Assembly: GCA_046330185.1 (NCBI GenBank)
Contig: JAXLTF010000018.1
Location: forward strand, 4,185-68,184
DNA from: Actinomycetota bacterium
GTDB lineage: Bacteria > Actinomycetota > UBA4738 > HRBIN12
Reading direction: 5' to 3'
Length of the DNA: 64,000 bases
The notes under the pieces are model-generated. The model was not told the origin of the DNA and made no database searches. It was given only the letters and a program-made list of their open reading frames with translations. Shown here piece by piece: positions 43,124-47,158 of the stretch (position 1 is its first letter; every line of letters begins with the position of its first letter). Position numbers and translations under genes: made by a program.

Positions 43124-44830
43124 CTACGGAGCGGCGTCCAGCGCCTCCTGCGCGGCCTGCGCCGCCTCGAACAGCCCGGCCCGAGACCGCTCGCCCGTGG
43201 CCCTGGTCTTGAGGTCGACGGTGCCCGTCGCCACCCCGCGCTTGCCCACGACGACCTGGACCGGGTACCCGATCAGGTCGGCGTCGGCGAACTTGACACC
43301 CGCCGTCGCGTCGCGGTCGTCGATCACGACATCAACCCCACGGTTCCGGAGCTCGGCGTAGACACGCTCGGCCTCGGCGACCGAGGCATCGTCGTCGCGC
43401 GTGGCCACGATCACCACCACCTCGAACGGTGCCAGGCGCCTAAGCCAGATCATCCCGGCCTCGTCGTGCCGCTGCTCGATCGCGGCGGCGATGATCCTGG
43501 TGATCCCGATCCCGTAGCACCCCATCAGGTACGGCTTCTCGGAGCCGTCCTCATCGACGAACCTCGCCCCGAGCGGCTCCGAGTACTTCGTGCCCAGCTG
43601 GTAGATGTGGCTCAGCACGATCGAACGGCCGGTGCGGAGGGTGCCCCCGTCGATCGGGCACGGGTCGCCGTCGCGGAACCCGACCAGGTCCTCCCAACGA
43701 TCCACCCGGAAATCGCGATCGAAGTTCGCGCCCGTCACGTGCCGGTCCTTCGTGTTCGAGCCCGTCACCCAGTCCCGTCCGCCGCGGACGAGATGATCGG
43801 CGAAGACCGTGACGTCCGGACCGAGCCCCTGCGGCCCGACGTAGCCCTTCACGAACCCACGCTCCACGAAGTCCCCCTCTTCGAGCGCCCGTACCTTCTC
43901 GGGGAACACGAGCTTCTCGAGCTTGGTGACGTTCACCTCACGATCGCCCGGGACCAGGACGGCCGCTGTCGCGCCGCCGACGTCGAAGAGGATGCACTTG
44001 AGCGTCCGGGACGGCTCGACCCCCAGGAAGGCCGCAAGAGCCTCGATCGTCGGCGTATCCGGGGTGTCGATCTCGGTCAGGGGCTCGGTCCCGGGCCCGG
44101 CGGGCTCCGGCGCCGCCGGTCTCGCGGCCTCGGTGTCGGACAGGTAGTCGCCGTGCTCGCACTCGACGAACAGATCCTCCCCGACGTCGGAGCGGGCCAT
44201 GAACTCGTGGTTCACCCCGCCCCCGATCTGCCCGGGGTCGGCCTCCACGATCGCGACGTCCAGCCCGCACCGGGCGAAGATCCGTTCGTAGGCCTCGTAC
44301 ATGGTGCGGTACGAGGCCCGCATGCCCTCCTCATCCCGGTCGAACGAGTACGCGTCCTTCATGAGGAACTCCCGCACGCGAAGCAGCCCGTAGCGGGGGC
44401 GGAACTCGTCACGGTACTTCCACTCGATCTGGTACAGGTTGATGGGGAGGTCCCGATACGAGGGCAGGTCGCCGGCCACGAGCGGGGTCACGACCTCCTC
44501 CTGGGTGGGCCCGAGCACCAGGTCGCGATCGTGTCGGTCGGCGAGCTTGAAGAGGGTGTCCCCGTAGAGCTCGTACCGGCCGGTCGCCCTCCAGGGCTCG
44601 GCCGGCAACACGATCGGCATCCGCACCTCGATCGCGCCGGCCCCGTCCATCTCCTCGCGGACGATCGCCTCGATCTTGCGGATCGTACGGAGCCCCAGCG
44701 GAAGGAACGTGTAGACGCCCGCCATGACCTGGCGGATGAACCCGCCGCGGAGCAGGAGCCGGTGGCTCGCGATCTCCGCTTCGGCGGGATCTTCCCTCAG
44801 CGTCGGGACGAAGAGCCGTGACAGGCGCAT
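43124..44830 (-). CDS. proS: Proline--tRNA ligase (bacterial type with editing insertion)
   Basis: MRLSRLFVPTLRE, LGPTQEE, KYRDEFRPRYGLLRVREFLMKDAY and MGCYGIG. Confidence 0.98.
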   Translation of the reverse strand: MRLSRLFVPTLREDPAEAEIASHRLLLRGGFIRQVMAGVYTFLPLGLRTIRKIEAIVREEMDGAGAIEVRMPIVLPAEPWRATGRYELYGDTLFKLADRHDRDLVLGPTQEEVVTPLVAGDLPSYRDLPINLYQIEWKYRDEFRPRYGLLRVREFLMKDAYSFDRDEEGMRASYRTMYEAYERIFARCGLDVAIVEADPGQIGGGVNHEFMARSDVGEDLFVECEHGDYLSDTEAARPAAPEPAGPGTEPLTEIDTPDTPTIEALAAFLGVEPSRTLKCILFDVGGATAAVLVPGDREVNVTKLEKLVFPEKVRALEEGDFVERGFVKGYVGPQGLGPDVTVFADHLVRGGRDWVTGSNTKDRHVTGANFDRDFRVDRWEDLVGFRDGDPCPIDGGTLRTGRSIVLSHIYQLGTKYSEPLGARFVDEDGSEKPYLMGCYGIGITRIIAAAIEQRHDEAGMIWLRRLAPFEVVVIVATRDDDASVAEAERVYAELRNRGVDVVIDDRDATAGVKFADADLIGYPVQVVVGKRGVATGTVDLKTRATGERSRAGLFEAAQAAQEALDAAP

Positions 44831-44886
44831 GAGGTCCCACAGGATAGCGGGCCGCCGTGGAGCCCCCGGCGGATGCTCCGTCGTCG

Positions 44887-44916
44887 TTGACAGCCCGGTG
44901 GTGCGCGCGGGACCAT
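44887..44916 (+). promoter_or_regulatory. Putative trp promoter (TTGACA ... GACCAT)
   Basis: Perfect -35; imperfect -10 ending 9 nt before the leader ATG. Confidence 0.5.
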
Positions 44917-44925
44917 CGGGGCCGC

Positions 44926-44994
44926 ATGCGGACGGACGGGAGGATCTGGGTCTGGCCCGAGGGCTCGCCGAGCCCCGGGATGCCGCCGGCCTGA
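44926..44994 (+). CDS. trpL: Trp leader peptide MRTDGRIWVWPEGSPSPGMPPA
   Basis: 22-aa uORF with TGG-GTC-TGG, 80 nt upstream of trpE. Not in the ORF track. Confidence 0.75.
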   Translation: MRTDGRIWVWPEGSPSPGMPPA

Positions 44995-45047
44995 CACCCA
45001 TCGTCTGCGCCACCGCCGCCCCGGGCTCGCCCGGGGCGTTCGTCTGT
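44961..45047 (+). terminator. Attenuator: alternative 1:2, 2:3 and 3:4 stems
   Basis: 1:2 GGGCTC/GAGCCC (44961-44975); 2:3 CGAGCC..GGG/CCCGGCTCG (44969-44979 with 45021-45029); 3:4 CCCCGG/CCGGGG (45020-45036) followed by CGTTCGTCTGT. Confidence 0.65.
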
Positions 45048-45074
45048 CGGGATCGACGTCGGAAGGAGCAGGTC

Positions 45075-46595
45075 GTGGAGCCGCAGCTACAGGTCCATCC
45101 GGATCGCGGAGCGTTCGACGAGCTCGCCAGCGCATGGCCGGTCGCCCCGGTGTGGGCGGACCTGATCGCGGACGTCTCCACACCGGTCGGCCTGTTCCCC
45201 GCCCTCGCAGGCGACGGGCCGGGGATACTCCTCGAGTCCGTCGAGCGCTCCGAGCGCTGGGGACGCTACTCCTTCGTGGCGGGAGATCCGGCCGGGATCG
45301 TCGTGGTGGACGAGGACGGCGCCCGCCTGAGCGACGTCGTGCGCCCCCTGCCGGTCGACGAGCCCCCGCCGGGGACCGATCCTCGGACCGCCCTGACGGC
45401 GATCGCTCGATCCCTCCGGGGACCACGGCCGCCCGACCTGCCCCCGCTCACCGGCGGGCTGATGGGCTACCTCGCCTACGAGGCGGCGGCTCTGCTCGAC
45501 GACCATCCGGCGCCCGAGGCGGGGACGGCGCCGTGCCCGCCGATCGGCCTCCTGCTGGTCGATCGCGCGGTCGTCTTCGACCACTGGCGCCAGCGACTCG
45601 TCCTGGTGGCGCACGCGAGCGCCGGCGGATACGACGCGGCCGTGACCGCGCTGCACGACCTGGCGACCCGGATCGCGAGCGCGGAGGTCCCGTCGCTGGC
45701 GCCGGCCGTGGATGCGGTCGCGCCCCCCGACGAGGGCGAGGCCAACATGCCGGACGAGGGCTACCGCTGGACGGTCGAGGCCTTCAAGGAGCACATCCGG
45801 GCCGGCGACATCTTCCAGGGCGTGCCATCGCGACGGGTCGCGTTCCCGGCTCCGCAGGGCGGGTTCCCGATCTACCGCCGCCTGCGCGTCACGAACCCCG
45901 CTCCCTACATGTTCTTCGTGCGGATGCTGGGGATGGAGCTCGCCGGCTCCTCGCCCGAGCCGCTCGTGCGCGTCGAGGGCCGGCGGGTCTGGACCCGACC
46001 CATCGCGGGTACCCGTCCACGAGGCCGGACCGAGGTCCGCGACCGGCTCCTCGAGCACGAGCTGCTGGCCGACCCGAAGGAGCAGGCCGAGCACGCGATG
46101 CTGGTCGACCTGGCCCGCAACGACCTCGGGCGCGTCTGCGTCGCGGGGTCCGTACGCCCGACGGAGCTGATGGAGGTCGAGCGGTTCTCGAGGGTGATGC
46201 ACATCGTCTCGACGATCGAGGGCGAGCTGCGCGAGGATCTGCACCCGCTCGATGCGCTCGCCGCCACCTTCCCGGCCGGGACGGTGACCGGCGCCCCGAA
46301 GCACCGCGCGATGCAGCTGATCGCCGACCACGAGCCGACCGCCCGCGGTCCGTACGCGGGGGCGGTCGGCTACCTGACGTTCGCCGGCGACCTGGACTTC
46401 TGCATCACGATCCGCACGGCCGTCGTGGTGGACGGCGACGTGAGCGTGCAGACCGGCGCCGGCGTGGTGGCCGACTCCGATCCCCAGGCCGAGCTCGACG
46501 AGACCAAGAGCAAGGCGGCGGCGCTGCTCCCGGCCGTCGCGGCTCCGACCGCTGGGGACGCTACGCTCGGGGGATCCACGGAGGTGGGCCCGTGA
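45075..46595 (+). CDS. trpE: Anthranilate synthase component I
   Basis: LLES and NPAPYM feedback motifs, GSSPE, PIAGTRPRG, EHAMLVDLARNDLG; AAGGAG RBS and Trp leader. Confidence 0.9.
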   Translation: MEPQLQVHPDRGAFDELASAWPVAPVWADLIADVSTPVGLFPALAGDGPGILLESVERSERWGRYSFVAGDPAGIVVVDEDGARLSDVVRPLPVDEPPPGTDPRTALTAIARSLRGPRPPDLPPLTGGLMGYLAYEAAALLDDHPAPEAGTAPCPPIGLLLVDRAVVFDHWRQRLVLVAHASAGGYDAAVTALHDLATRIASAEVPSLAPAVDAVAPPDEGEANMPDEGYRWTVEAFKEHIRAGDIFQGVPSRRVAFPAPQGGFPIYRRLRVTNPAPYMFFVRMLGMELAGSSPEPLVRVEGRRVWTRPIAGTRPRGRTEVRDRLLEHELLADPKEQAEHAMLVDLARNDLGRVCVAGSVRPTELMEVERFSRVMHIVSTIEGELREDLHPLDALAATFPAGTVTGAPKHRAMQLIADHEPTARGPYAGAVGYLTFAGDLDFCITIRTAVVVDGDVSVQTGAGVVADSDPQAELDETKSKAAALLPAVAAPTAGDATLGGSTEVGP

Positions 46596-47158
46596 TCCTG
46601 GTCGTCGACCACTACGACTCGTTCGTGTACAACCTCGTGCAGCTCGTCGAGAGCCTGGGGCGCTCGACCGAGGTCGTGCGCAGCGACGCCGAGCCCGCGG
46701 AGACCCTCGTCGGACGCTCCCCCGAAGCCGTGCTCCTGTCTCCGGGACCCGGGAGGCCCGAGGACGCCGGCTGCTTCACGGAGCTGTTGCGGATCCTTCC
46801 CGCGCAGACGCCGGTCCTGGGGGTGTGCCTCGGCCACCAGGCGCTGGGCATCGCCTCCGGAGGCGCGGTCGTCCGCGGAACGCCGGTCCACGGCAAGGCC
46901 TCGCTCGTCCGCCACGACGGCCGGGGCATCCTGGAGGGCCTTAGCGACCCGTTCGAGGCAGGGCGGTACCACTCGCTCGTGGTCCAGCGCGACCGCTTGC
47001 CCGACGACCTGGAGCTCACCGCGTGGACCGAGGACGGCCTGGTGATGGCGACCCAGCATCGGACGCTCCCGCGGTTCGGCGTGCAGTTCCATCCCGAGTC
47101 GATCCTCACGCCGGAGGGCCCGCGGATCGTGGAGAACTTCCTGGCGCTGACGCGCTGA
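46592..47158 (+). CDS. trpG: Anthranilate synthase component II (glutamine amidotransferase)
   Basis: VDHYDSFVYNL, SPGPG, LGVCLGHQ, RYHSL and QFHPESI. Confidence 0.93.
   Translation: MILVVDHYDSFVYNLVQLVESLGRSTEVVRSDAEPAETLVGRSPEAVLLSPGPGRPEDAGCFTELLRILPAQTPVLGVCLGHQALGIASGGAVVRGTPVHGKASLVRHDGRGILEGLSDPFEAGRYHSLVVQRDRLPDDLELTAWTEDGLVMATQHRTLPRFGVQFHPESILTPEGPRIVENFLALTR

What the first reader, a model, noticed from the sequence alone, without database searches (positions are those of the whole stretch)
44887..45074. Unannotated ribosome-mediated Trp attenuator upstream of trpEG
Seen: TTGACA promoter, then a near-leaderless uORF MRTDGRIWVWPEGSPSPGMPPA*, with mutually exclusive stems. A ribosome stalled at the second TGG (44953-44955) would cover segment 1 (44961-44966) and free segment 2 (44969-44979) to pair with segment 3 (45021-45029), blocking the 3:4 hairpin. 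Translation to the stop at 44992 would cover segment 2 and allow 3:4 to form. Known: this is classical trp attenuation geometry; actinobacterial trp leaders typically have adjacent Trp codons. The split W-V-W sensor and weak U tract are unusual, so termination may need Rho or NusA. It also supports TrpE over PabB.
Basis: partly seen in the sequence, partly recalled or inferred. Interest (0 to 1): 0.65.

Follow-up and report, generated by a model that had tools for sequence, protein, structure and literature searches.

The report
Tryptophan-sensing leader before trpEG
A 22-codon mini-gene with two tryptophan codons, followed by a stop-transcription hairpin, lies in front of the first tryptophan-synthesis genes; it is conserved across a whole uncultured group of soil actinobacteria and most likely works as a classic ribosome-operated switch, so it is well supported but ordinary in kind.

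Summary

**What is in the window**
- The elements lie in this order between divergent proS and trpE-trpG: a TTGACA/GACCAT promoter, a near-leaderless ORF (44926-44994, MRTDGRIWVWPEGSPSPGMPPA*), a 1:2 hairpin directly after the Trp codons, a 2:3 alternative pairing, and a 9-bp GC hairpin (45017-45038) with a weak U tail.
- On its own the window sequence is not statistically remarkable.

**Comparative evidence**
- 76 distinct orthologous leaders keep the promoter, the start-codon spacing and W-x-W. The middle residue is W in 16, and each leader has 2-4 Trp codons.
- They also keep both hairpins, with compensatory changes.
- A blind DNA-pattern scan of about 185,000 species found about 60 true copies. 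Every copy with enough downstream sequence to check lies 62-130 nt upstream of trpE.
- A covariance model finds the leader in 216 of 294 species of this uncultured class. No trp-type copy appeared in a phylum-wide sample outside it.

**Mechanism and limits**
- Folding with a ribosome masked at the Trp codons gives the 2:3 antiterminator in 30 of 33 unbiased leaders. With the ribosome at the stop codon it does so in 1 of 33.
- No RNA or expression data could be obtained.

**Classification**
- It is not in Rfam. It is a new member of a known kind: classical trp attenuation, already known in Corynebacterium and Streptomyces.
- By-products: a sister W-F-F-Y leader before DAHP synthase, and a WWW subgroup that appears to use 1:3 pairing.

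The parts
43124..44830 (-). proS (proline-tRNA ligase), transcribed divergently. It bounds the 244-bp intergenic region, so the hairpin cannot be the terminator of an upstream + strand gene.
   Evidence: NF006625, 713.8 bits, above cut-off; ORF.
44887..44892 (+). -35 hexamer TTGACA.
   Evidence: TTGAC is invariant in alignment A1. It is TTGACG/A/T in 76 of 76 leaders, with a 17-18 nt spacer in 75 of them.
44911..44916 (+). -10 hexamer GACCAT, 9 nt before the ATG (leaderless or near-leaderless transcript, inferred).
   Evidence: A and AT of the hexamer are invariant in A1. The hexamer lies 6-10 nt from the start codon in 76 of 76 leaders. No transcription start site data.
44926..44994 (+). Leader ORF (trpL-like), 22 codons plus TGA: MRTDGRIWVWPEGSPSPGMPPA*.
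44947..44955 (+). Sensor codons TGG-GTC-TGG (W8-V9-W10).
   Evidence: TGG at both positions in 66 of 66 long-form leaders. The middle codon varies: V, W, S, R, A, F, I, L, T.
44956..44966 (+). Segment 1 (CCCG-A-GGGCTC), the 5' strand of the 1:2 hairpin. It starts directly after the second Trp codon.
   Evidence: compensatory changes; -18.7 kcal/mol.
44969..44979 (+). Segment 2 (CGAGCCCCGGG). It pairs with segment 1 or with segment 3.
   Evidence: Inverted repeats I14 and I5.
44995..45016 (+). C-rich, U-poor spacer between the leader stop and the terminator. It forms the interior of the 2:3 structure.
   Evidence: Family spacer composition is C 41%, G 30%, A 22%, T 7%.
45017..45029 (+). Segment 3: the terminator 5' arm CGCCCCGGG plus loop CTCG. 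The loop extends complementarity to segment 2.
   Evidence: (I5, I6).
45030..45038 (+). Segment 4: the terminator 3' arm CCCGGGGCG.
   Evidence: Stem-base and stem-top pairs covary across the family.
45039..45048 (+). Interrupted U-rich tail TTCGTCTGTC.
   Evidence: typical for the family. It fails the canonical terminator scan.
45061..45068 (+). Shine-Dalgarno GGAAGGAG of trpE. It lies 22 nt beyond the hairpin and is not sequestered by it.
45075..46595 (+). trpE (anthranilate synthase component I), GTG start.
   Evidence: Best NCBIfam hits are TrpE models: NF010086 486.6 bits and TIGR00564 475.7 bits, both below their cut-offs. The paralogs are PabB and isochorismate synthase.
46592..47158 (+). 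trpG (glutamine amidotransferase component II). Its start overlaps the trpE stop.
   Evidence: TIGR00566, 190.7 bits, above cut-off.

Best explanation
This is a classical ribosome-mediated transcription attenuator that makes trpE-trpG expression depend on charged tRNA-Trp.

**Proposed sequence of events**
1. Transcription starts at or a few bases before the leader AUG. A 70S ribosome translates the 22-codon leader.
2. With enough Trp-tRNA, the ribosome runs through codons 8 and 10 and on over segments 1 and 2 to the stop.
3. Segment 2 is then either covered by the ribosome or re-paired with segment 1. Segment 3 is free to pair with segment 4, and the GC hairpin with its U-rich tail stops RNA polymerase before trpE.
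4. When Trp-tRNA is scarce, the ribosome stalls with a TGG in its A site. It then covers or holds open the lower part of the 1:2 stem.
5. Segment 2 pairs with segment 3 (CGAGCCC-CGGG with CCC-GGGCTCG). The terminator cannot form, and transcription reads into trpEG.

**Shown here**
- Every sequence element and its conservation.
- The exclusive association of the leader with trpE.
- Compensatory changes in the 1:2 and 3:4 stems.
- Mutual exclusivity of the pairings, and computed folding states that depend on ribosome position.

**Inferred**
- The transcription start site, translation of the leader, and the stall itself.
- That the hairpin terminates transcription, possibly helped by NusG.
- The response to Trp.
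For: **Context**
- The leader lies between divergent proS and trpE-trpG.
- trpE is the only anthranilate synthase candidate in the genome.

**Conservation**
- 37 leaders anchored only on TrpE orthology share the -35, the -10, the ATG spacing, TGG-NNN-TGG, GGGCTC-NNN-GAGCCC and CCCCGGG...CCCGGGG.
- Among 76 distinct leaders, W-x-W is invariant, 16 are WWW, and each has 2-4 Trp codons in about 21. TGG fills 23-29% of three otherwise variable positions, including the unpaired loop codon.

**Independent search**
- A DNA pattern containing no trpE information gave 76 hits among about 185,000 species, of which about 60 are true leaders (sorted).
- All 38 new distinct leaders that could be checked lie 62-130 nt upstream of a TrpE ortholog.

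**Structure**
- On 37 leaders, the 1:2 plus 3:4 structure has 12 pairs with changes on both sides, reached by 0 of 500 shuffles.
- On 78 distinct leaders it is 91.3% paired, with 103 compensatory cells against 28.4 +/- 8.0 in shuffles.
- The terminator core and segment 2 never vary although the stem base and top covary freely. This is the signature of segments with more than one partner, also noted for Corynebacterium and Streptomyces trp attenuators (PMC1262725).

**Ribosome-position folding**
- Window: the 2:3 pairing forms with a ribosome at W1 or W2. With no ribosome, or with one at the stop codon, 1:2 forms and segment 3 is free.
- Family: segment 3 pairs with segment 2 in 30 of 33 anchored leaders when the ribosome is at W2, and in 1 of 33 when it is at the stop.

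**RNA-level conservation**
- Short-form leaders stop inside the 1:2 loop, yet they keep the segment 2 and CCGCGCG nucleotides untranslated. The conservation there is therefore at RNA level.

**Distribution**
- The model finds the leader in 216 of 294 species and 48 of 78 genera of the class, usually as a single strong copy per genome.
Against: - No experimental data.
- The window's fold is no better than shuffled sequence (z = +0.58).
- The U tract is weak: 4 T in the 10 nt counted from the CCGGGG core, longest run 2. It fails a canonical terminator scan.
- The 2:3 helix core never varies, so covariation neither supports nor refutes it.
- At equilibrium, a rival segment 1:segment 3 pairing is predicted in 28 of 70 leaders when the ribosome sits at the stop codon. 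Taken literally, this would be the wrong polarity. The model therefore relies on kinetics, with the local 1:2 hairpin forming first.
- Some relatives have lost the leader but kept the promoter, so it is dispensable.
Confidence: 0.85

Rival explanations
1. The Trp-codon sensor is the same, but the GC hairpin is not a self-sufficient intrinsic terminator. Termination or arrest would need a factor: NusG-stimulated termination at a suboptimal U tract, or Rho loading on the C-rich, G-poorer spacer. Alternatively, the hairpin acts mainly as a pause.
For: - The U tract is weak and interrupted in the window and in most of the family. The longest T run is 3 or less in 58 of 70 leaders.
- The canonical terminator scan gives no hit.
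- The spacer is 41% C and only 7% T.
- Mycobacterial RNA polymerase needs a U tract but tolerates imperfect ones, and NusG stimulates termination at them (PMC3993855).
Against: - Several orthologs do have good U tracts directly after the same hairpin, for example GGGGTTTTTTCG and CCTTTTTTGT. This points to intrinsic termination as the ancestral function.
- A ribosome stalled about 45 nt upstream would not block Rho loading on the spacer, so Rho alone gives no Trp dependence without the 2:3 switch.
Confidence: 0.3
2. Control is translational rather than transcriptional. Leader translation or the alternative folds would change trpE initiation, by re-initiation after the leader or by masking of the trpE ribosome-binding site.
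For: - Re-initiation after leader peptides has been proposed for Actinobacteria (PMC4833913).
- Small hairpins near the trpE Shine-Dalgarno sequence appear in the window's minimum-energy fold.
Against: - The conserved hairpin ends 22 nt before the Shine-Dalgarno sequence and does not include it.
- The leader stop lies 62-130 nt from the trpE start, which is far for re-initiation.
- The region between the hairpin and trpE is not conserved.
Confidence: 0.06
3. The small ORF encodes a functional or arrest peptide (TnaC-like sensing of free Trp, or a peTrpL-like peptide acting in trans), and the conserved GSxSPxxPR[VA] tail is the active part.
For: - The C-terminal half of the peptide is highly conserved in long-form leaders.
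- Leader peptides and released attenuator RNAs act in trans in Sinorhizobium (PMC7298713, PMC6614838).
Against: - Six of 37 anchored leaders stop before this tail yet keep the same nucleotides downstream.
- The second Ser is AGC in 65 of 66 leaders and Arg is CGC in 54 of 58. This fits RNA-level constraint, although two-step codon switches are rare anyway.
- Codons 2-7 are not conserved at all.
Confidence: 0.03
4. Chance: a random short ORF and a GC palindrome of the kind common in a 72% G+C genome, with no regulatory role.
For: Single-sequence statistics are unremarkable.
Against: - The leader is conserved across 216 species with compensatory changes.
- It is found exclusively upstream of trpE.
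- The Trp codons are invariant.
Confidence: 0.01

Closest known systems
Corynebacterium glutamicum trpL and Streptomyces (S. venezuelae, S. coelicolor) trp leaders: classical attenuators of Actinobacteria (PMC1262725; PMC4046766; PMC11802643)
   Same: - A short leader ORF with Trp codons upstream of the anthranilate synthase gene.
- A GC-rich terminator.
- An antiterminator and terminator built from conserved, partly self-complementary words used in several pairings.
- In Streptomyces, as here, only the trpE unit carries the leader.
   Different: - Those leaders have two or three adjacent Trp codons. Here the invariant pattern is W-x-W, with WWW in only about 20%.
- There is no detectable sequence relationship. 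The switch core differs: GCCCGG / CCCCGGGC / GCCCGGGG here, against gGCC-rGCy-GGCC there.
- The U tract is mostly weak.
- The lineage is an uncultured class known only from metagenome-assembled genomes.
Escherichia coli trp operon leader (Rfam Trp_leader RF00513)
   Same: - The four-segment logic: 1:2, 2:3, 3:4.
- The regulatory codons lie just before or within segment 1.
- The stop codon is placed so that a terminating ribosome prevents 2:3.
- The computed energies have the same ranking: the terminator is more stable than the local 1:2 hairpin, so the switch must be kinetic.
   Different: - No Rfam match even at E <= 10.
- The leader mRNA has no Shine-Dalgarno sequence (leaderless).
- The ORF runs through both segments 1 and 2 in most members.
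- The Trp codons are split.
Leaderless polycysteine short ORFs of mycobacteria (bioRxiv 10.1101/834739) and the C. glutamicum ilvB leader, which is translated without a ribosome-binding site (cited in PMC4046766)
   Same: - A leaderless short ORF as the first cistron.
- It senses one amino acid through its codons and controls downstream biosynthetic genes.
- An actinobacterial promoter placed directly before the AUG.
   Different: - The mycobacterial Cys ORFs lack an obvious terminator hairpin (PMC1262725).
- Here a conserved, covarying hairpin with alternative pairings is present.
C. glutamicum aroR leader (Phe-Tyr-Phe) upstream of aroF (Neshat et al. 2014, as reported in PMC11802643 and PMC4046766)
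   Same: It is the known counterpart of the W-F-F-Y leader found here in relatives, upstream of DAHP synthase.
   Different: - The leaders found here also contain Trp.
- They share promoter type, spacing, switch core and terminator core with the trp leader of the same genomes.
- They precede a type I-beta DAHP synthase.

Membership tests
Classical ribosome-mediated trp attenuator (mechanistic class) | A short translatable ORF in the 5' leader of a Trp biosynthesis operon, containing Trp codons as the only conserved sense codons. | tested here: met
   W-x-W is invariant, codons 2-7 vary, and the leader is always upstream of trpE.
Classical ribosome-mediated trp attenuator (mechanistic class) | A terminator hairpin (3:4) between the leader ORF and the first structural gene. 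| tested here: met
   A 9-bp GC stem of -21.2 kcal/mol. Stem base and top covary, for example AU:32, GU:21, GC:18, CG:3 at one pair.
Classical ribosome-mediated trp attenuator (mechanistic class) | A U-rich tract directly after the hairpin. | tested here: inconclusive
   The window has TTCGTCTGTC. The family is mostly weak, though some members have T5-T6.
Classical ribosome-mediated trp attenuator (mechanistic class) | An antiterminator pairing that is mutually exclusive with the terminator. | tested here: met
   - In the window, CGAGCCCCGGG pairs with CCCCGGGCTCG (10 of 11, repeat I5).
- The GCCCGG:CCGGGC core is pairable in 89-100% of sequences at each of its six pairs.
- There is no covariation because the core never varies.
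Classical ribosome-mediated trp attenuator (mechanistic class) | A 1:2 pairing whose 5' strand lies within reach of a ribosome stalled at the regulatory codons. | tested here: met
   Segment 1 starts directly after the second TGG. Searches show covariation; searches show the masked folds.
Classical ribosome-mediated trp attenuator (mechanistic class) | Read-through that rises on Trp or charged tRNA-Trp limitation and depends on the Trp codons. | not testable with these tools
Rfam Trp_leader (RF00513) or any other Rfam family (T-box, riboswitches) | A match to the covariance model. | tested here: not met
   No match at E <= 10 over 43500-46500 on either strand.
TnaC-type arrest-peptide / Rho-dependent attenuation | A conserved peptide needed for stalling at the stop codon, with a Rho loading site next to that stop codon. 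| tested here: not met
   The peptide tail is absent in the short-form leaders while the nucleotides are kept. The stop position varies between the 1:2 loop and about 10 nt after segment 2.
Anthranilate synthase component I (TrpE), as opposed to PabB or MenF | Best match to TrpE models, with other paralogs accounting for PabB and isochorismate synthase. | tested here: met
   - TrpE models score 486.6 and 475.7 bits against 345.3 for PabB. All are below the equivalog cut-offs.
- the C2 paralog passes the pabB cut-off, and the C62 paralog is an isochorismate synthase.

The most novel reading that the evidence does not exclude
One leaderless attenuator scaffold has been duplicated and re-coded within this phylum.

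- The trp leader (W-x-W or WWW, before trpE) and an aromatic leader (W-F-F-Y, before DAHP synthase) are collinear and about 50% identical.
- They share promoter type, the position of the first TGG at codon 8, the GCCCGG / CCCCGGGC / GCCCGGGG switch core and the terminator.
- Within the trp family, the antiterminator partner of segment 3 has switched between segment 2 (W-x-W leaders, including this window) and segment 1 plus loop (all 16 WWW leaders).

If so, sensor codons and switch wiring would be separately evolvable modules.
Probability: 0.45. Interest if true: 0.5.

Novelty: new member of a known kind. Interest (0 to 1): 0.33.

Why it matters
- **Regulation in an uncultured lineage.** It shows how the first committed step of Trp synthesis is probably regulated in a class-level lineage of soil and groundwater Actinomycetota with no cultured member. 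In this lineage trpEG is detached from the other trp genes, which carry no leader.
- **Annotation.** It fixes the annotation of the gene as trpE rather than pabB.
- **Material for Rfam.** The alignment and covariance model (78 distinct leaders held here, with matches in 216 species) could seed a new Rfam family.
- **A natural comparison set.** The set includes long and short leader ORFs, W-x-W against WWW, 2:3 against 1:3 antiterminators, and strong against weak U tracts. It could be used to study how attenuators are wired on leaderless mRNAs.
- **No change to the known mechanism.** It does not alter what is known about attenuation.

Tried and rejected
- **Single-sequence statistics.** The whole-leader fold is not better than shuffles. 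The sigma-70 and terminator consensus scans are empty. This approach was dropped in favour of comparison.
- **Rfam at a permissive threshold.** Nothing found.
- **Covariation test for the 2:3 helix, and for an alternative 1:3 helix, on the 37-leader alignment.** Neither exceeds the shuffles, because the cores never vary.
- **A helix closing the 5' end of the mRNA onto the 3' end of the leader ORF.**
  - Cognate duplexes are 1.4 kcal/mol better than non-cognate ones (0 of 5,000 permutations as good).
  - No fixed pairing register exists in the alignment.
  - The same test did not detect the terminator base, which served as the positive control. I therefore treat this as weak evidence.
- **Extension of the antiterminator by flanks.** Support is weak (p about 0.012).
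- **A cultured carrier.** The one named actinobacterial hit with a similar peptide (Salinilacustrithrix flava, L109) is a chance match inside a coding region. The Streptomyces, Dactylosporangium and non-actinobacterial hits are also chance matches.
- **A second Trp leader in the window's own genome.** There is none upstream of priA-trpC-trpB-trpA or of trpD. A promoter-plus-short-ORF scan finds only this one with Trp codons.
- **The aromatic leader in the window's own genome.** Neither it nor its DAHP synthase was found in this 79%-complete assembly.
Full report
**1. What is in the window**

The finding lies in a 244-bp intergenic region (44831-45074). On one side is proS on the minus strand (43124-44830; NF006625, 713.8 bits). 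On the other is a plus-strand pair: an anthranilate-synthase-I gene starting with GTG at 45075 (to 46595), and an amidotransferase gene overlapping its stop (46592-47158). Because proS is divergent, any hairpin in this region cannot be the terminator of an upstream gene on the same strand.

- TTGACA at 44887-44892.
- An ORF from ATG 44926 to TGA 44992-44994, encoding MRTDGRIWVWPEGSPSPGMPPA*.
- TGG codons at 44947-44949 and 44953-44955.
- GGGCTC (44961-44966) facing GAGCCC (44970-44975).
- CGAGCCCCGGG (44969-44979), complementary in 10 of 11 positions to CCCCGGGCTCG (45019-45029).
- A perfect 9-10 bp GC hairpin at 45017-45038, followed by TTCGTCTG (repeats I5, I6 and I14).

I add a -10 hexamer, GACCAT, at 44911-44916. 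It has an 18-nt spacer from the -35 and lies 9 nt from the ATG. This leaves no room for a Shine-Dalgarno sequence.

**2. Is the window alone convincing?**

No.
- The whole leader folds no better than dinucleotide shuffles (z = +0.58).
- Consensus scans find no sigma-70 promoter and no canonical terminator.
- Rfam has no match at E <= 10.

In a genome of about 72% G+C, GC palindromes and open frames are cheap. The case therefore rests on comparison with other genomes.

**3. Comparative evidence**

*Leaders anchored on TrpE orthology.*
- The window's genome is a 2.6-Mb assembly, 79% complete.
- TrpE orthologs (64-86% identical) occur in 48 of the 60 relatives searched, counting hits with E-values of 1e-147 or smaller.
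- I took the upstream DNA of these orthologs with no reference to the leader.
- 37 of them carry the same arrangement, and they align well (alignment A1).
- Invariant or nearly invariant columns are TTGAC, the A and AT of the -10, the start codon, TGG-NNN-TGG, GGGCTC-NNN-GAGCCCGG, a CGCG word near the leader stop, and CCCCGGG...CCCGGGG.
- Codons 2-7 of the leader ORF are not conserved.

*Blind pattern scan.*
- A DNA pattern containing no trpE information (TGGNNNTGGNNNNNGGGCTCNNNGAGCCCGG) was scanned over one genome for each of about 185,000 species. It gave 76 hits.
- About 60 of these have the TTGAC promoter, a short ORF and (in most) the hairpin. All of them are in records titled Actinomycetota or "uncultured Actinomycetes" metagenome-assembled genomes.
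- All 38 new distinct leaders that could be checked lie 62-130 nt upstream of a TrpE ortholog.
- The remaining hits are chance matches inside coding regions. They include the only cultured actinobacterium with a similar peptide.

*The Trp codons.*
- Among 76 distinct leaders, W-x-W is invariant.
- The middle residue is V, W or S (16 each), or R, A, F, I, L, T.
- Leaders hold 2 Trp codons (34 leaders), 3 (26) or 4 (16) in about 21 codons.
- TGG fills 23-29% of three otherwise variable positions. One of these is the codon in the unpaired loop of the 1:2 hairpin, where no pairing could explain it.

*The promoter.*
All 76 leaders have TTGAC(G/A/T), a -10 of the form (C/G)A(C/G)(A/C)AT in nearly all (with a 17-18 nt spacer in 75), and 6-10 nt from the -10 to the start codon. 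The leader mRNA is therefore leaderless or nearly so. This is inferred, since no start-site data exist.

*Distribution.*
- A covariance model of the transcript (R1) finds the leader in 216 of 294 species and 48 of 78 genera of the order, usually as a single strong hit per genome.
- The class-level search returned the same 294 genomes. The order is therefore the whole class.
- In an even sample of 401 genomes of the phylum, trp-type hits occur only inside this class.

**4. Structure**

*Terminated form (1:2 plus 3:4).*
- On A1 this form has 12 pairs with changes on both sides, and 0 of 500 shuffles reach the observed values.
- On the model-based alignment of 78 distinct leaders it is 91.3% paired. 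It has 103 compensatory cells against 28.4 +/- 8.0 in shuffles. All slid registers are far worse.
- The base and the top of the terminator stem covary freely. One pair, for example, is AU:32, GU:21, GC:18, CG:3.
- The seven core pairs never vary.
- An ordinary terminator stem has no reason to be invariant across a class. Invariance is expected if the same bases must also fit a second partner. Seliverstov et al. noted the same for the conserved complementary triples of Corynebacterium and Streptomyces trp attenuators (PMC1262725).

*Antiterminator (2:3).*
- The six core pairs GCCCGG:CCGGGC can form in 89-100% of sequences. Because they never vary, covariation says nothing either way.
- In the window and its genus, the terminator loop (CTCG, TTCC) extends the complementarity to 10-11 bp.

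*Peptide or RNA?*
Six anchored leaders end the ORF inside the 1:2 loop. They still keep segment 2 and the following CCGCGCG as untranslated RNA. The conserved "GSxSPxxPRV" tail therefore reflects RNA constraints, not a functional peptide.

**5. Mechanism by constrained folding**

*The window*. Energies are -18.7 kcal/mol for 1:2, -30.2 for the whole 2:3 region and -21.2 for 3:4. I folded the RNA as it exists before segment 4 emerges:
- Ribosome with either TGG in its A site (RNA masked to 12 nt beyond the first base of the codon): the minimum-energy structure is the 2:3 helix.
- No ribosome, or ribosome at the stop codon: 1:2 forms and segment 3 is unpaired.

*The family*.

| Ribosome position | Segment 3 pairs mainly with segment 2 |
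|---|---|
| At W2 | 30 of 33 anchored leaders; 50 of 70 overall |
| At the stop codon | 1 of 33 anchored leaders; 3 of 70 overall |

*A caveat.* At equilibrium, segment 1 can also pair with the 5' flank and arm of the terminator. This is predicted in 28 of 70 leaders for the stop-codon state. Taken literally, that is the wrong polarity. As in E. coli, the model therefore needs kinetics: the local 1:2 hairpin forms about 50 nt before segment 3 exists.

*The U tract.* It is weak throughout the family. The longest T run is 3 or less in 58 of 70 leaders, and the window is typical. Some members do have T5-T6 directly after the same hairpin. Mycobacterial RNA polymerase terminates at imperfect U tracts and is helped there by NusG (PMC3993855). 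Factor-aided termination is therefore a live sub-variant.

**6. Two wirings in one family (seen in relatives)**

| Leader type | Strongest partner of segment 3 | Median energies (kcal/mol) |
|---|---|---|
| All 16 WWW leaders | Segment 1 plus the loop (GGGCUCGUGG:CCACGAGCCC, 10 bp) | -23.1, against -14.4 for 2:3 |
| 43 of 54 W-x-W leaders, including the window | Segment 2 | -19.8, against -15.4 for 1:3 |

Two W-x-W leaders (L006, L114) have GCGG:CCGC where the WWW group has GUGG:CCAC, which is a compensatory pair of changes.

A common description fits both wirings. The stalled ribosome holds open the lower half of the 1:2 stem, which includes the second Trp codon and the next codon. One strand of the weakened upper half is then captured by segment 3. 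This is inference.

**7. Context in the genome**

- The other trp genes are elsewhere. priA-trpC-trpB-trpA-lgt lies on contig 61 and trpD on contig 58. Neither has a Trp leader.
- As in Sinorhizobium (PMC6614838), only the anthranilate synthase unit is attenuated.
- The two paralogs of the window protein are a PabB (TIGR00553, 349.5 bits, above cut-off) and an isochorismate synthase.
- Some relatives have lost the leader but kept the promoter (L014, L015, L029; L024 lacks both). Others have trpE inside other operons.

**8. Comparison with what is known**

- Classical trp attenuators were predicted for Corynebacterium and Streptomyces and studied experimentally in C. glutamicum and S. venezuelae (PMC1262725). 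C. glutamicum trpL has three consecutive Trp codons (PMC4046766).
- Leaderless sensor ORFs are known in Actinobacteria. Examples are the mycobacterial polycysteine ORFs (bioRxiv 10.1101/834739) and the C. glutamicum ilvB leader, which is translated without a ribosome-binding site (cited in PMC4046766).
- The element here works like these but is not a sequence relative of any curated family.
- It is a new member of a known kind. Its local peculiarities are the split W-x-W sensor, an ORF that runs through segments 1 and 2, a switch core made of self-complementary words, and a weak U tract.

**9. By-product: a sister leader**

- Weak R1 hits (35-51 bits) in relatives, and in two genomes of other classes, are a sister leader. 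Examples are MRYVGGDWFFYGGRGPA*, MDRFCGYWFFYGGPGPA* and MKTRSSWFGFFWGYYAPAAARLR*.
- It has the same kind of promoter, the first TGG at the same codon, the same switch and terminator core, and about 50% identity to the trp leader of the same genome.
- It lies about 9-60 nt upstream of the start of a DAHP synthase gene (NF006421, 476.9 bits).
- Its known counterpart is the C. glutamicum aroR (Phe-Tyr-Phe) leader before aroF (PMC11802643).
- It was not found in the window's own incomplete genome.

**10. Verdict**

- Confidence is about 0.85 that this is a Trp-codon-sensing, ribosome-mediated attenuator of trpEG.
- Confidence is about 0.6-0.7 in the specific 2:3 wiring and in intrinsic (possibly NusG-aided) termination.
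- Nothing here is surprising to a specialist. The value lies in annotation, in a candidate new RNA family, and in a natural set of variants.

Noticed in passing
L144, L145-L150, L152 (relatives); L172 and L173 (other classes of the phylum): A sister leaderless leader ORF rich in Trp, Phe and Tyr (for example MRYVGGDWFFYGGRGPA*). It has the same CCCCGGGC...GCCCGGGG terminator core and lies directly upstream of a DAHP synthase gene (NF006421, above cut-off). It is collinear with, and about 50% identical to, the trp leader of the same genome. It is probably an aromatic-amino-acid attenuator of the first shikimate-pathway step.
   Followed up: partly
Relatives, e.g. L056, L063, L065, L068, L072, L084, L096 (WWW leaders); L006, L114: All 16 WWW leaders have segment 1 plus the hairpin loop, not segment 2, as the best partner of the terminator 5' arm (GGGCUCGUGG:CCACGAGCCC). 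L006 and L114 show the compensatory version, GCGG:CCGC. Most W-x-W leaders, including the window, use 2:3. One family therefore seems to contain two antiterminator wirings.
   Followed up: partly
window 44841-44846 (minus strand TATCCT), 10 nt before the proS ATG at 44830: A conserved CCACAGGATA(C/G)CG word (TATCCT on the proS strand) lies about 10 nt before the proS start in several relatives too. This suggests that proS is also transcribed as a near-leaderless mRNA from a divergent promoter in the same intergenic region.
   Followed up: no
L014, L015, L024, L029 (relatives of the same family): The leader ORF and hairpins are absent. trpE follows directly with its own Shine-Dalgarno sequence, behind the retained TTGAC promoter in L014, L015 and L029 (no TTGAC is visible in L024). 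The attenuator has therefore been lost repeatedly or is dispensable.
   Followed up: no
G000 contig 61, about 94400-97930 (outside the window); contig 58, 3-869: The remaining trp genes are arranged as dnaE / priA-like (hisA/trpF type) - trpC - trpB - trpA - lgt. trpD lies alone next to a tRNA-like sequence. None has a Trp-codon leader.
   Followed up: partly
L002 (G000 contig 2) and L003 (G000 contig 62): The PabB paralog carries a C-terminal extension with a weak match to an aminodeoxychorismate-lyase-like model, so it may be a PabB-PabC fusion. The isochorismate synthase paralog was reported with one in-frame TGA, so it may be frameshifted or carry an assembly error.
   Followed up: no
whole lineage: The order-level and class-level searches return the same 294 species. 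The window therefore belongs to a class-level clade of Actinomycetota with a single order. It seems to be known only from soil, groundwater and sediment metagenome-assembled genomes of 1.3-5 Mb.
   Followed up: no
G289 (contigs 26 and 246) and G174 (contigs 114 and 115): These genomes each have two strong full-length trp leaders on different short contigs. This could be strain heterogeneity or contamination in the assemblies, or a real duplication of trpE.
   Followed up: no
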